64,000 nt of DNA from Eledone cirrhosa. Taxonomy: Eukaryota. Where the stretch lies: positions 11,594,001 to 11,658,000 of the forward strand of contig OZ024759.1 of NCBI GenBank assembly GCA_964016885.1, written 5' to 3'. The position numbers were made by a program, and so were the translations under genes. This document shows positions 17,396 to 40,425 of the stretch, piece by piece; positions within the stretch are counted from its first letter, which is position 1; the number at the start of each line of letters is the position of its first letter. The notes below the pieces were generated by a model that made no database searches, had not been told where the DNA came from, and worked only from the letters and a program-made list of their open reading frames with translations.

Positions 17396-17703
17396 GATTT
17401 ATCAAATAATGGTAGTTAAGACGGGATTAAATCACCATAATTGTTTATTGCATTATATATATTTCTGTTACATGGTTATTCATGTGACTTCATCAGGTGC
17501 TTACACAGTCATAGGTGCAGTTATGTAATCACTGTGAGAGAATGCAATAAACAATTATGGTGAATTAATCCCGTCTTAACTACCATTATTTGGTAAAGGA
17601 ATACTCTGTCACTCAATATCCCCTACCTGGGATAAACTACTGACGTGAAGTGCTTTGGGTCACTAGGGCCTGTTTATCATCAGGAAGTTACTACGTAACA
17701 ACT
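17396..17703 (+). mobile_element. HHR-bearing foldback element
   Basis: Arms about 17397-17454 / 17540-17597; right tail begins atactctg and ends in TATATA. Confidence 0.62.
17450..17500 (-). ncRNA. Type I hammerhead ribozyme motif (family A-like, AUA site)
   Basis: Minus strand: gcac-CTGATGA-a-gtcacatg-aataac-catgtaac-a-GAAA-t-atat-ATA-atgc; one mismatch each in stems I and II. Confidence 0.6.
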
Positions 17704-17721
17704 ATATATAGATATAGATAT

Positions 17722-17985
17722 ATCATCATCATCATCATCATCATCATACATCCGCTTTTCCCTACTTGCAAGGGTTGGACGGGTCTTATTCAGCAGAGCA
17801 TCTCTCCACTTGTCACGGTCCTTCGTCATCTCCACCGTGAGCTTCAGCGATCTGAGGTCTGCTCTCACCACCTCCGCTCATGTTTTTCATGGTCTTCCTC
17901 CACTGCGTCTTCCTTCTACTGGGACTTCCTGGCACTTCTTTAGCCAGTGGTCATCCTCAATGCACATCACATGTCCATACCATTA
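17722..17985 (-). mobile_element. RTE LINE 3' end
   Basis: VRADLRSLKLTVEMTKDRDKWRDALL plus (ATG)n tail; homologous to 44880-45135. Confidence 0.78.
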
Positions 17986-19430
17986 TCATCCTATATTATA
18001 GTGGATCTTCAATTGAAAGGTTAAAAGCCAACATGGCCCAGTATTTGCTGTATTTCTATGTCACTTTCTATTCAGATCATCATCATCATCAGATCATCAT
18101 GTAATGTCTGCTTTCCCTGCTAGCATGGGTCAGACATAGATTAATAAACAATATTAAAATAGTTTCTTAAATTAAGAAGTAGGACAATGCTTACATGAAT
18201 ATGTCTGTCTGTGTGGTGGGGGTGGGGGTTGCTGTGTGTGTGGTGGGGGTTGCTGTGTGTGTGGGTGTTGTGTGTGTGTGTGGTAGTGTGGAGGGTGTAG
18301 TGGTGTGGTGGGTTGCTGTGTGTGTGTGTGGAGGGTGTGGTGCGTTGCTGTGAGTGTGGCGGTGTGGTGGGTTGCTGTGTGTGTGTGTGGAGGGTGTGGT
18401 GGTGTGGTGGATTGCTGTGTGTGTGTGTGGTGGTGTGGTGGGTTGCTGTGTGTGTGGAGGGTGTGGTGGTGTGGTGGGTTGCTGTGTGTGTGGAGGGTGT
18501 GGTGGTGTGGTGGGTTGCTGTGTGTGTGGAGGGTGTGGTGGTGTGGTTGGTTGCTGTGTGTGTGGAGGGTGTGGTGGGTTGGTGTGGTGGTGTGGTGGGT
18601 TGCTGTGTGTGTGTGGTGGAGTGTAGAGTGGAATATATTGCTATTACGTTGGCTTTAGTATATATTTTCTATATATTTTGAAATCTATTAATTTATATTA
18701 TCTTTATTTTATTACTTTGTTTTTATTGCTGCCTCAGTTCTCTTTATCAGTTGCTTTATTTTTACTTAATTTGCCATACATTTTTCCAGTTTATGATTAA
18801 CACTTCCGATACCATACTTTCTATTGAAAGACACTGCCCAAGATTTTTCAATTAATTTTTCAAAAATAATCAAACATTTTGAGAGATATTTACTTATATA
18901 AATAATTTTTTTCATTATCAAGTTGTTGTTATTGTGACTTAACAAATATTCTTACATGAAATTATGATGGAAGGTTTTTCAGATAAATATAAACACTTTA
19001 ACCATTTCATCATTATATTTCTTATGAAAGATATTGGCTAAGATTTTCAATTAATTTTTATAATAATCAAATATTTGGAGTGATTTAGTAATATAACTCG
19101 TTATTATGCTAGTGTTTGGAACATAACTTAACAAAGGTTCTTACATAAAATGATGTTTATTTTGGAAAAATATATAAACAATTTAAAAGACAGTTTTGTA
19201 TGATAGAACCAGAGGCAGTTTCAACCAGTTTGGTATCACAAGGGTTAAAACATTTTTCAAAATATGAATTGTTGGTTTTATTTTGAAAAAAAATATTTTG
19301 CCATCTTAAAAAACAAATTTCTTGAAACAAGGTTATTTAGACAACATTGATTATTTTGAATTTGAAATGTAGTTGCCACAGTGTAAATGACAACAATAAT
19401 AGTTGCTCACTCTAAATAATTGTTGAGAAG

Positions 19431-20580
19431 TTAACCCTTTACCATTTACATTACTCTATATATACTATTGCATTTTCACAGTAAAGGCTTTACCTCACAT
19501 AATATATCACATAACATTTACATTACTCTATATATACTATTGTATTGTCACAGTAAAGGTTTTACCTCACGTAATATTTACATTACTCTATATTTACTAT
19601 TGCATTTTCACAGTAAAGGCTTTACCTCACACAATATCTCACATAACATTTACATTACTCTATATATACTATTGTATTTTCACAGTAAAGGCTTTACCTC
19701 ACATAATATCTCACATAACATTTACATTACTCTATATATACTATTGTATTGTCACAGTAAAGGCTTTACCTCACATAATATCTCACATAACATTTACATT
19801 ACTCTATATATACTATTATATTTTCACAGTAAAGGCTTTACCTCACATAATATCTCACATAACATTTACATTACTCTATATATACTATTGTATTGTCACA
19901 GTAAAGACTTTACCTCACAATATCTCACATAACATTTACATTACTCTATATATACTATTGTATTGTCACAGTAAAGACTTTACCTCACATAATATCTCAC
20001 ATAACATTTACATTACTCTATATATACTATTGTATTGTCACAGTAAAGACTTTACCTCACATAATATCTCACATAACATTTACATTACTCTATATATACT
20101 ATTGTATTGTCACAGTAAAGACTTTACCTCACATAATATCTCACATAACATTTACATTACTCTATATATACTATTGTATTTCCACAGTAAAGGCTTTACC
20201 TCACATAATATCTCACATAACATTTACATTACTCTATATATACTATTGTATTTTCACAGTAAAGGCTTTACCTCACATAATACCTCACATAACATTTACA
20301 TTACTCTATATATACTATTATATTTTCACAGTAAAGGCTTTACCTCACATAATATCTCACATAACATTTACATTACTCTATATATACTATTGTATTTTCA
20401 CAGTAAAGGCTTTACCTCACATAATATCTCACATAACATTTACATTACTCTATATATACTATTGTATTTTCACAGTAAAGGCTTTACCTCACATAATATC
20501 TCACATAACATTTACATTACTCTATATATACTATTGTATTTTCACAGTAAAGGCTTTACCTCACATAATATCTCATATAA
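19431..20580. repeat. 72-bp minisatellite (about 16 units) starting at a TTAACCCTTT MITE-like end
   Basis: 24-aa periodic ORF; the first 30 bp have an inverted match near 20815-20843. Confidence 0.85.
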
Positions 20581-20627
20581 TATTGAATCTATGAGATTTT
20601 GATGTTATTTATTTTGAAAACAACACC

Positions 20628-20935
20628 TTAACCCTTTAGTATTTAAACCGGCCATATCTGTCCAGAATTCTCTCACCTCTTTCTGTTCTGACCAGCCATA
20701 AATGGCCACTCATACTGATGTTAAGTTATTGTTCTCAAAATAAATAACATGAAATTCTTGTAGGTGAGATAATTATGTAAGATAAAGCTTTTACCATGAA
20801 AATATAATAGTAAATATAGAGTGATGTACATGGTAAAGGGTTATTGTAGGTATGTGTGGCCAATTGTGGCTGGTTTGAACAGAAATAGGTGAGAGAGGTT
20901 CTGACCGGATATGGCTGGTTTAAATGCTAAAAGTC
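20628..20935. mobile_element. MITE with about 75-bp TIRs beginning TTAACCCTTT (piggyBac-like TTAA ends); orphan end at 14180-14258
   Basis: ttaaccctttagtatttaaaccggccatatc...ctctcacctc vs ggtgagaga...gatatggctggtttaaatgctaaaag. Confidence 0.55.
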
Positions 20936-38695: not shown

Positions 38696-38750
38696 ATATA
38701 TATTATTCAAAATATTAATAAATGAAAAATATTCTCATAATCAAAATATA

Positions 38751-38813
38751 TATTTTATTATACATATTTCAAAGGTACAATGGTGTTTAAGTACGTTTTC
38801 ATCAGACAATATA
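38751..38813 (-). ncRNA. Type I hammerhead ribozyme motif, family A
   Basis: Minus strand: tatattgt-CTGATGA-aaacgtac-ttaaacaccatt-gtaccttt-GAAA-t-atgt-ATA-ataaaata. Confidence 0.68.
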
Positions 38814-39229
38814 TATAAATATATACACACACACACAAATAGTATAATTGTCTGGATTTAAACATTTTTTATTTTCGTTGTTGCCTCTACCACAATTGTC
38901 ACATGACTGCCATACTCTCTCTCTCTCACTATCTCTCCCTCTTTCCCTTCCCTTTATATCTCTCTCTCCCTCTCTCTTCTCTTCCATTCTTTCTCACTTT
39001 CTCTCTCTCCTCATCTCTCCCCTGTCTTTCTCCTTCTGTCTTCTTTTCTCTCCTCTATGTCTAAAACCTTTCATCACAATATTATGTAAGAGCCTTTGTT
39101 AAGTTATGTTGCAAACATCAGCTTAACAATGAGAAAATTAGTTATATTACTAAATCTCTTCAAATTCTTGATTTTTTTTTCAATTAATTTTTTTACATTA
39201 TTAGCAGTGTGATCCATTGAAAACAGAAC

Positions 39230-40045
39230 AGAAGGCTTGAGAACCTAGGGGGCCTCAGTAATGTATGTAAAATAAAGAAGGGTTGAGAACCTAGGGGGCC
39301 TCAGTAATGTATGTAAAATAAAGAAGGGTCAAGAACCTAGGGGGCCTCAGTAATGTATGTAAAATAAAGAAGGGTTGAGAACCTAGGGGGCCTCAGTAAT
39401 ATATGTAAAACAAAACAGAAGGGTTGAGAACCTAGGGGGCCTCAGTAATGTATGTAAAATAAAGAAGGGTCGAGAACCTAGGAGGCCTCAGTAATGTATG
39501 TAAAATAAAGAAGGGTCGAGAACCTAGGGGGCCTCAGTAATATATGTAAAACAAAAAAGAAGGGTTGAGAACCTAGGGGGCCTCAGTAATGTATGTAAAA
39601 TAAAGAAGGGTCGAGAACCTAGGGGGCCTCAGTAATATATGTAAAACAAAAAAGAAGGGTTGAGAACCTAGGAGGCCTCAGTAATGTATGTAAAACAAAA
39701 CAGAAGGGTTGAGAACCGAGGGGGCCTCAGTAATGTATGTAAAACAAAAAAGAAGGGTTGAGAACCTAGGAGGCCTCAGTAATGTATGTAAAACAAAAAA
39801 GAAGGGTTGAGAACCTAGGAGGCCTCAGTAATGTATGTAAAACAAAACAGAAGGGTTGAGAACCGAGGGGGCCTCAGTAATGTATGTAAAACAAAAAAGA
39901 AGGGTTGAGAACCTAGGAGGCCTCAGTAATGTATGTAAAACAAAAAAGAAGGGTTGAGAACCTAGGAGGCCTCAGTAATGTATGTAAAACAAAACAGAAG
40001 GGTTGAGAACCGAGGGGGCCTCAGTAATGTATGTAAAACAAAGAA
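39230..40045. repeat. 46-49-bp minisatellite
   Basis: Unit gaagggttgagaacctagggggcctcagtaatgtatgtaaaa(t/c)aaa; ggttgagaacc resembles hAT-type termini. Confidence 0.85.
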
Positions 40046-40364
40046 GTGTTGCTAAATAAATTTAAATTCTGGAATCATATTCCACCATTCCCCCAAATTG
40101 TTAATTCCTTTTAAATTAACGTAAATACAAGCTCTTCCTTTTTCTTCTTCCTATTCATACATACATATATCCTAATTATTTAAATTCTGCATAGCGTCTA
40201 AAATAACGTTTTTTTCAGCCCTATACCTCAACCTCATTTGCATACTCATCTTAATAATTTGAAATATCTGACTTTTCTTCTCTTATCCCTTCACTATCCA
40301 AGGAAAACTTGAACCGTTAAGGTAACTTTTCTTGGTTATGTAAAAATTTATAAAACAAACTTTG

Positions 40365-40425
40365 TATTTTATCTGATGAAAGCGTACAAAAGTTTTGGTA
40401 CCCTTGAAATATATATAATAAAATA
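40365..40425 (+). ncRNA. Type I hammerhead ribozyme motif, family A
   Basis: tattttat-CTGATGA-aagcgtac-aaaagttttg-gtaccctt-GAAA-t-atat-ATA-ataaaata; perfect 8-bp stem I. Confidence 0.78.

What the first reader, a model, noticed from the sequence alone, without database searches (positions are those of the whole stretch)
17450..40425. Family A: six hammerheads with all-AU minimal stem III and AUA cleavage site, showing stem II covariation
Copies at 17450, 26435, 27976, 38483, 38751 and 40365 share CTGATGA...GAAA-TAT(A/G)TATA. Stem II differs in each but pairs (ataccat/atggtat, gtactg/cagtac, gtac/gtac, acatg/catgt), most with an internal C-C mismatch. Stem III is itself a (TA)n palindrome, so it likely needs dimerisation as described for minimal PLE hammerheads. 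It also mimics the (TA)n target, a possible link between cleavage site and insertion-site annealing (inference).
Basis: partly seen in the sequence, partly recalled or inferred. Interest (0 to 1): 0.72.

Follow-up and report, generated by a model that had tools for sequence, protein, structure and literature searches.

The report
Hydra-clade Penelope hammerheads, ends elsewhere
These six hammerhead-ribozyme motifs are end pieces of a known kind of animal jumping gene with about 40,000 copies in this genome; they likely cut only in pairs, and the copies end about 50 or 140 bases beyond the predicted cut site rather than at it, so the proposed link between cut site and insertion site does not hold.

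Summary
The six motifs are real type I hammerheads (6 matches, none in 100 shuffles). Stem II covaries, a C-C mismatch is nearly fixed, and stem III is a palindrome predicted not to form in a monomer. They come from three repeat families, not one, and two copies are damaged. The main family has about 40,000 copies. Its hammerhead lies in the pseudo-LTR of a 3.6-kb Penelope-like element with a telomerase-like RT and the Hydra-clade motifs, 200 nt upstream of the start codon.

Copies end near +50 or +140 from the cut (at least 10,570 at +50, 67 at stem III). 5' ends are not enriched at the cut. Families whose stem III is not (TA)n also sit in (TA)n. In the unit mapped, both ends lie 9 nt before twin hairpins.

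Hydra elements with hammerheads are published, including one from octopus. The scan noted what appears to be this family and the hairpins earlier on other DNA (e1-8670794, e1-8804881). Cleavage is untested.

The parts
17382..17537 (-). Family B PLE end fragment with hammerhead (core 17496-17490, predicted cut between 17454 and 17453); first pair of stem I is C-A, so probably inactive
17541..17704 (+). Inverted partner copy of family B with the long tail; its 5' end falls at the cut site (-1/+1), a single case
26358..26539 (+). A1 fragment between two (TA)n runs; hammerhead 26435-26499, predicted cut after 26491, 3' end at +48; stem III AUAUGUAU
27932..28112 (-). A1 fragment; hammerhead 27976-28037, predicted cut between 27984 and 27983, 3' end at +52 into (TA)n; extra A-C mismatch in stem II
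38343..38568 (-). A2 fragment with the long tail; hammerhead 38483-38549, predicted cut between 38491 and 38490, first tail hairpin at +61, 3' end near +148 into (TA)18
38605..38690 (+). Inverted A2 half-copy starting in loop II (3' half of a hammerhead only)
38704..38813 (-). A2-type fragment truncated inside stem I; hammerhead 38751-38813; same strand as the 38541 copy, 264 nt upstream of it
40051..40469 (+). A1 fragment: 3' UTR/pLTR of the Hydra-clade PLE, 95% identical to the end of the near-full-length copy in L031; 3' end at +52
40365..40425 (+). Type I hammerhead: stem I 40365-40372/40418-40425, CUGAUGA 40373-40379, stem II with C-C, GAAA, stem III AUAUAUAU 40409-40416, predicted cut after A40417; distal stem I 40347-40356/40432-40441
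40470..40499 (.). (TA)15 target microsatellite at the 3' end of the 40373 copy

Best explanation
The six motifs are hammerhead folds in 5'-truncated end fragments (pseudo-LTRs) of Penelope-like retrotransposons, shown to be of the Hydra clade for the three A1 copies and likely so for the others; the ribozyme likely cuts after AUA only when two copies swap their palindromic stem III strands, and the cut likely plays no part in choosing the insertion site. Shown: in A1 the unit is pLTR-hammerhead, 200-nt leader, RT-GIY-YIG ORF, 1.2-kb 3' UTR, hammerhead. Full-length copies carry two same-strand hammerheads 3.5-3.7 kb apart. Inserted copies end in (TA)n at about +50 or +140 from the cut. Inferred: the endonuclease nicks (TA)n. 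The RT starts inside the RNA, 9 nt upstream of either of two small hairpins, and copies back through an uncut hammerhead. It usually falls off early, which leaves the short and often inverted fragments seen in the window. Cleavage would be a slow or occasional processing of tandem transcripts, not a step of integration.
For: Element: L031 carries RWR, KSDKT, YRDD, CNCRIESNC (CxCX5C), a GIY-YIG-type core, CNLC and CRH on the hammerhead strand, the features listed for Hydra (PMC8557442 section 11). An AlphaFold model of a 409-aa RT piece (pLDDT 87.8) has telomerase TERT as its top five PDB hits (best E 2.9e-10). In 12 of 29 other ORF-start loci a hammerhead lies directly upstream; ATG is at +201 in L195. 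7 of 13 stretches, picked for an upstream hammerhead, have two same-strand hammerheads. Ends: in 30 loci chosen only by a +10..+34 word, 21 end near +47..55, 9 carry the long tail and 0 end at the cut. 29 of 30 run upstream past CUGA and 24 of 30 keep an intact core. Genome-wide, 67 copies end at stem III against at least 10,570 at +50. Structure: 96% of cells paired in 24 copies; 24 cells changed on both sides against 9.7 in shuffles (0 of 500). Dimer. In the first 100 matches, 93 are TATATATA or TATGTATA (about 40 with G, which keeps G-U pairs in a dimer) and 0 are the mirror TACATATA, which would break them (count by eye). Precedent: internal RT starts explain PLE tails, and hammerhead-dead RNA still inserts in vitro (PMC11167929).
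Against: No cleavage or RNA data. No coding remnant was found for A2 or family B, and none in the window, so their clade is inferred from architecture. Pfam and PDB sequence searches did not recognise the RT piece; one short piece gave RVT_1 at E 0.06. Most copies are solitary or inverted, so dimers need tandem units 3.6 kb apart or a partner in trans. Predicted minimum-energy folds of the copies mostly are not the active fold, and RNAalifold paired stem III with downstream sequence. The A/G contrast may rest on few independent events. On the count of covarying pairs, one search does not beat shuffles (4 against 3.6). Family A lacks the usual G10.1-C11.1 pair. The PAc ribozyme cut only with protein present.
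Confidence: 0.8

Rival explanations
1. One reading: the (UA)4 stem III, freed by cleavage, anneals to the nicked (TA)n target and so fixes an end of the insertion.
For: 67 copies run from stem III straight into long (TA)n, and none of 30 inspected resumes element sequence. 111 copies have (TA)6 joined at the cut, about 22 of 30 inspected being true 5' ends (by eye). The inverted arm at window 17541 starts at -1/+1. By eye, 20 of the 100 matches listed join at -1/+1 against about 13 expected, a mild excess.
Against: These classes are 0.2-0.3% of about 42,000 copies. The control junction at +10..+14 gives 37, in line with its shorter microhomology. Of 19 true 5' junctions in 30 inspected loci, 4 fall at -1/+1, about 4 expected. 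Deletion between stem III and the nearby (TA)n flank explains the 67 equally well. Families with stem III AUGCGCAU, AUGAUCAU and ACCACUGGU also end in (TA)n. None of 25 published Hydra hammerheads has a (TA)n stem III, yet 26 of 27 listed families prefer (TA)n.
Confidence: 0.05
2. The hammerhead cleaves as a monomer, helped by the PLE protein or by tertiary contact between loop II and the internal loop of the extended stem I; the palindrome only reflects a 2-bp hairpin.
For: A distal stem I with an internal loop exists. The PAc hammerhead is protein-assisted. Most genomic copies have no partner.
Against: The positions that would be the monomer loop stay self-complementary across families (AUAUAUAU, AUAUGUAU, AUGCGCAU, AUGAUCAU; 82 of 85 distinct sequences pair at the centre, where the outer A and T were fixed by the search). 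The monomer hairpin costs +4.7 kcal/mol. Single minimal hammerheads showed no cleavage in PMC4209133.
Confidence: 0.2
3. The fold is kept as a structural or protein-binding signal in the pLTR and barely cleaves at all.
For: Tens of thousands of inserts were copied through the uncut site. The all-AU stem III, A-U at 10.1-11.1 and C-C in stem II should all weaken catalysis (inference). In vitro activity of minimal hammerheads is low.
Against: Every catalytic nucleotide is kept across diverged subfamilies and only N7 varies (part of this is built into the search patterns).
Confidence: 0.15
4. The copies are a non-coding retrozyme or SINE-like family rather than fragments of a coding PLE.
For: The window copies are 0.1-0.4 kb and have no ORF.
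Against: A1 copies are nested 5' truncations of one 3.6-kb coding unit; no head-to-tail arrays of this motif appear in the window. Not excluded for A2 or B.
Confidence: 0.05

Closest known systems
Hydra clade of C-terminal EN+ Penelope-like elements, including Hydra-1_Obim of Octopus bimaculoides (Craig et al. 2021, PMC8557442; sections 11 and 15, passages, supplement part 2 and alignment passages read)
   Same: RWK-like, DKT, CxCX5C, CxxC and CxH motifs, no CCHH, C-terminal GIY-YIG, hammerhead near the 3' end, (TA)n target, tandem and inverted copies with tails.
   Different: A different family from Hydra-1_Obim (other stems, stem III ACCAAUGGU there). The unit is 3.6 kb with a 1.2-kb 3' UTR, against generally under 3 kb. 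Stem III is an even 8-nt AU palindrome with an AUA site, whereas all 25 tabulated Hydra hammerheads have GUH. Stem II is long with a fixed C-C. There are about 40,000 copies.
Minimal PLE hammerheads (Cervera and de la Pena 2014, PMC4209133, parts 1-2 of 4 read; Lunse et al., not held, known only from passages of review PMC6765202)
   Same: Type I order, intact core, short palindromic helix III, long helix II, mostly solitary copies, pairs on opposite strands 100-700 bp apart, predicted dimer cleavage.
   Different: No G10.1-C11.1 pair and no bulge after A9 in A1/A2; stem I of 8 bp plus a distal helix.
Poseidon_Ac (PAc) of Anolis (Frangieh et al. 2024, PMC11167929, parts 1-2 of 4 read)
   Same: Two element ends downstream of the hammerhead, at the pLTR-ORF junction; AT-rich target; ends unrelated to the hammerhead cut.
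   Different: In PAc the hammerhead overlaps the start codon and RT starts 111-118 nt into the ORF in an AC-rich stem-loop. Here the cut is 200 nt upstream of the ATG, and the two ends are 94 nt apart, each 9 nt before a hairpin.
Animal non-LTR retrozymes (Li et al. 2026, 10.64898/2026.07.22.740005, part 1 of 5 read; PMC7229834 search listing only)
   Same: Type I hammerhead, PLE connection.
   Different: Those are non-coding head-to-tail arrays; family A1 is the end of a coding element.

Membership tests
Type I hammerhead ribozyme | CUGANGA and GAAA core with UH site, in type I order | tested here: met
   6 of 6 copies
Type I hammerhead ribozyme | Stems I and II supported by covariation | tested here: met
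   Stem II pairs 2, 5 and 6 change on both sides; stem I 100% paired with mostly one-sided changes. Copies are related, so the shuffle counts are not probabilities.
Type I hammerhead ribozyme | Match to an Rfam hammerhead model | tested here: not met
   No hit at gathering or E<=10 in 26000-41000. This is a database match, not a feature of the fold.
Type I hammerhead ribozyme | Self-cleavage | not testable with these tools
   Needs an in vitro assay or cyclic-phosphate RNA-seq
Minimal (dimer-type) PLE hammerhead | Short palindromic helix III, unstable in the monomer | tested here: met
Minimal (dimer-type) PLE hammerhead | Conserved G10.1-C11.1 pair and extra nucleotide after A9 (common, not universal) | tested here: not met
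   A-U in 64 and G-U in 16 of 85 distinct sequences; many published Hydra hammerheads also lack it
Minimal (dimer-type) PLE hammerhead | Cleavage as a dimer | not testable with these tools
   Energy estimates only
Penelope-like element | Telomerase-like RT plus GIY-YIG endonuclease in one ORF | tested here: met
   A1 only, read from decayed copies:
Penelope-like element | pLTR-ORF-pLTR tandems, inverted 5'-truncated copies, tail | tested here: met
Hydra clade | RWK and DKT motifs, CxCX5C linker, no CCHH, CxxC and CxH | tested here: met
   L031 translation compared by eye with section 11 and the published alignment; RWR in place of RWK
Hydra clade | Insertion into (TA)n | tested here: met
Hydra clade | Placement in the clade on an RT tree | not tested
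   The reference sequences were visible only as paper text
Hydra clade (A2 and family B copies) | Linked ORF with Hydra motifs | tested here: inconclusive
   No contiguous ORF in the loci held
Non-LTR retrozyme | Non-coding head-to-tail array of hammerhead units | tested here: not met

The most novel reading that the evidence does not exclude
Hydra-clade PLEs start reverse transcription a fixed 9 nt upstream of either of two small hairpins (ACUC..GAGU and GCUC..GAGC) behind the hammerhead, on a UA-rich spacer that gives the nicked (TA)n primer 0-5 nt of pairing. The perfect (UA)4 of stem III only 50 nt away is almost never used. Start-site choice would then be a structure-based ruler, as with the template boundary of telomerase, and tens of thousands of copies record it in vivo.
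Probability: 0.4. Interest if true: 0.55.

Novelty: new member of a known kind. Interest (0 to 1): 0.3.

Why it matters
The role of PLE hammerheads is stated to be unclear (PMC8557442 section 15). This family gives a genome-scale negative result: among about 40,000 insertions the cut site marks neither end, and 29 of 30 sampled copies were copied through an uncut ribozyme. That agrees with the one in vitro system (PMC11167929). The family itself is one more member of a published clade. Its two sharp ends and the hairpins behind them are a ready template for testing how PLE RT picks its start.

Tried and rejected
Rfam: no hammerhead hit. Pfam on five L031 pieces, the L204 RT piece and four homologues, and a PDB sequence search: nothing significant. 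Lunse et al. (PMC5785218) is not held. A search for papers on AUA/NUH rates found none; that AUA fits the NUH rule is recalled knowledge. A stem-III-deleted variant, seen in 2 of 30 loci, suggested a spread ribozyme-dead subfamily, but only 5 copies exist genome-wide: rejected. The Neptune-like ORF beside the L035 copy is a separate neighbouring element, and the Hydra-type ORF in L093 is not contiguous with family B. One search used a structure string shifted by one column and was redone. The repeat finder on the whole window was swamped by microsatellites. The CUGAUGA..GAAA match at 44654 has no hammerhead stems I or III by eye and was set aside. A sequence look-up in earlier findings returned nothing. 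Searches for octopus + Penelope + hammerhead and for PLE hammerhead, tail and target terms found no paper on this family; subscription journals and Repbase were not searched.
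Full report
OBSERVATION. The window lies in a 3.0-Gb genome (G000:C20:11594001-11658000). I read it as octopus-like from its repeats and from Argonauta proteins among the best homologues; this is inference. Four copies are on the minus strand. All six read as type I hammerheads: stem I, CUGAUGA, stem II, GAAA, an 8-nt stem III (AUAUAUAU or AUAUGUAU), then A17. The flanks show three families: A1 (26443, 28029, 40373), A2 (38541, 38805) and B (17496). The 17496 copy has a mismatch at the first pair of stem I, and the 38805 copy begins inside stem I.

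STRUCTURE. In 24 A1 copies the hammerhead fold pairs 96% of cells; 24 cells change on both sides against 9.7 in shuffles (0 of 500 reached it), while the number of covarying pairs (4 against 3.6) does not beat shuffles. The copies are related, so these counts are not probabilities. Among 85 distinct sequences from 129 copies in the loci held (a biased set), stem II position 4 is C-C in 77 and paired in 1. Positions 2, 3, 5 and 6 switch between A-U and G-C or U-A and C-G. A distal extension of stem I (12 pairs, 97% paired, spacer 6-13 nt) is present in A1 but shows no change on both sides. Unconstrained folding mostly gives other structures.

DIMER. The monomer stem III is 2 bp with a 4-nt loop (+4.7 kcal/mol; pairing probability <=0.004 in 6 of 6), whereas two strands form an 8-bp duplex (-3.2, or -2.2 for the G variant). 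In the first 100 of 38,117 genomic matches, 93 are TATATATA or TATGTATA and none is the mirror variant TACATATA (count by eye; one appears among the 85). G leaves G-U pairs in a dimer, while C would leave C-A mismatches. Other families in the loci have AUGCGCAU, AUGAUCAU or ACCACUGGU (the scan required 70% self-complementarity, so it cannot show non-palindromes). This matches the dimer model for minimal PLE hammerheads, whose activity in vitro was low (PMC4209133). Cleavage is inferred, not shown.

PARENT ELEMENT. A 25-nt word at +10..+34 from the cut occurs 42,437 times exactly, with 0 for the reversed control. Longer copies extend upstream through a 1.2-kb UTR into a decayed ORF on the same strand. 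L031 shows RWR, KSDKT, YRDD, CNCRIESNC, a GIY-YIG-type core, CNLC and CRH. These are the Hydra-clade features (PMC8557442 section 11), and they agree by eye with the published Hydra-1_Obim alignment. A 409-aa RT piece has 871 homologues at E<=1e-10 and folds (pLDDT 87.8, 70 sequences) closest to telomerase TERT. Pfam and PDB sequence searches missed it. Of 29 other loci with the ORF start, 17 have pLTR sequence and 12 a hammerhead directly upstream. Of 13 longer stretches picked from those, 7 have two same-strand hammerheads 3.52-3.67 kb apart. In L195 the ATG is at +201. The 40373 fragment is 95% identical to the end of L031. No ORF was found for A2 or B.

TEST OF THE CUT-SITE LINK. (a) 3' ends. 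In the first 30 loci chosen only by the +10..+34 word, 21 end at +47..55, 9 carry the long tail (8 end at +136..144, one was not placed) and none ends at the cut; that word cannot find copies ending before +34, so I counted those separately. 67 copies run from stem III into long (TA)n (none of 30 inspected resumes the element), against at least 10,570 ending at about +50 in a single spacing. The stem III pattern asks for five more TA units and the other for four, so the comparison is rough, but the gap is over 100-fold. (b) 5' ends. 29 of 30 extend upstream past CUGA and 24 keep an intact core. (TA)6 joined at the cut occurs 111 times (of 30 inspected, about 22 are true ends and 7-8 are slippage expansions, by eye). 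A control junction with shorter microhomology occurs 37 times. Junctions with G/C flanks in -1..+10 number 137. In the 30 inspected, 11 are internal deletions or mutations and 4 of the 19 true junctions lie at -1/+1, about 4 expected. By eye the 100 listed give 20 against about 13 expected, a mild excess that I cannot exclude. (c) Controls. Families with non-TA stem III also end in (TA)n some 35-55 nt past their cut. In the published tables, 26 of 27 Hydra families prefer (TA)n and none of 25 tabulated hammerheads has a (TA)n stem III. The paper attributes the bias to the linker of the endonuclease.

WHAT SETS THE ENDS. I checked this in part. In L195 the short end is +52 and ACUC..GAGU starts at +61; the long end is +146 and GCUC..GAG-C starts at +155. 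Of 62 hairpin matches in the two zones, 51 are A-U closed in the first and 7 G-C closed in the second. One family has the G-C form in first place, and hairpin loops vary from 8 to about 50 nt. The first hairpin was not found in family B. The RNA just past each end is UA-rich. Microhomology with (TA)n is 0-5 nt at seven sites scored by eye (sum 21, against a mean of 1.2 per site; p about 0.006 in a crude test that treats related subfamilies as independent). The A1a short end has none. By analogy with PAc, where genomic ends equal internal RT starts and hammerhead mutants still insert (PMC11167929), the ends are likely RT start sites placed by structure, perhaps helped by weak pairing at the spacer. 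Stem III offers a longer perfect match to the target and is hardly used.

MECHANISM. Shown: anatomy, copy number, end positions. Inferred: transcription through tandem units, nicking of (TA)n, internal priming at +52 or +146, copying through an uncut hammerhead, early truncation and inversion. Also inferred: occasional dimer cleavage between the two hammerheads of a tandem, or in trans. In the window only 38805 and 38541 are close on one strand (264 nt), and the former is damaged. The rare copies ending at stem III are either mis-priming there or later deletion between stem III and the (TA)n flank.

VERDICT. A new, very abundant family of a published clade. Its differences from the 25 tabulated Hydra hammerheads (AUA site, even all-AU palindrome, fixed C-C, long 3' UTR) are details. 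I found no paper on this family; Repbase, subscription journals and bioRxiv supplements were not seen and may hold it. The scan has reported what appears to be the same family and the hairpins on other DNA. Interest 0.3.

Noticed in passing
L195, +61..+195 from the cut (G000:C3:16885043-16888334, minus strand): The 3' arms of the two tail hairpins are complementary to each other (AGUGCUC/GAGCACU), and AUCAGUUAUA pairs with UAUAACUGAU just before the ATG; together these could form a switch or pseudoknot that competes with the hairpins.
   Followed up: no
window 6225-6269 (-): Another hammerhead-like motif (AGUCA/CUGAAGA/GUCACA..UGUGAC/GAAAGAACUA/UGACU) from a repeat that is also found beside Neptune-like PLE ORFs such as L035 2094-3496; a decayed relative may lie at 21459 (+).
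   Followed up: partly
window 26571-26805: Fold-back element of about 100-bp arms next to the 26443 copy, with a CUGAUGA..UUGAAA core at 26724 (-).
   Followed up: no
window 21537-21760 and 40500-40640: Shared (TA)n-inserted repeat end, present as an inverted pair at 21.6 kb; the same sequence abuts a Hydra-type ORF in L093.
   Followed up: partly
window 27640-27900: Inverted-repeat element with poly-G/poly-C tracts directly after the 28029 copy.
   Followed up: no
L025, L087, L096, L213, L245; L029, L159, L246; L006, L013, L164, L242; L048, L155; L041: At least five further hammerhead families with palindromic stem III (AUGCGCAU, AUGAUCAU, ACCACUGGU/ACCAAUGGU, AUAUAUAU with other stems, ACAUAUGU), mostly ending in (TA)n; many insert into each other's (TA)n flanks.
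   Followed up: partly
L117, L127, L132-L134, L142: Recurrent deletion of stem III and the cut site between two GAAAUA direct repeats; about a third of the 100 matches listed (by eye).
   Followed up: partly
window 10968-11167: 200-base N gap in the assembly.
   Followed up: no
window 22047-24039, 39220-40042, 48455-49744, 53297-54744, 55926-56923: Many young minisatellite arrays (71, 49, 48, 38 and 48-bp units); the 48-bp unit at 55.9 kb recurs at 29.7 kb and contains CTGATGAAA in some units.
   Followed up: no
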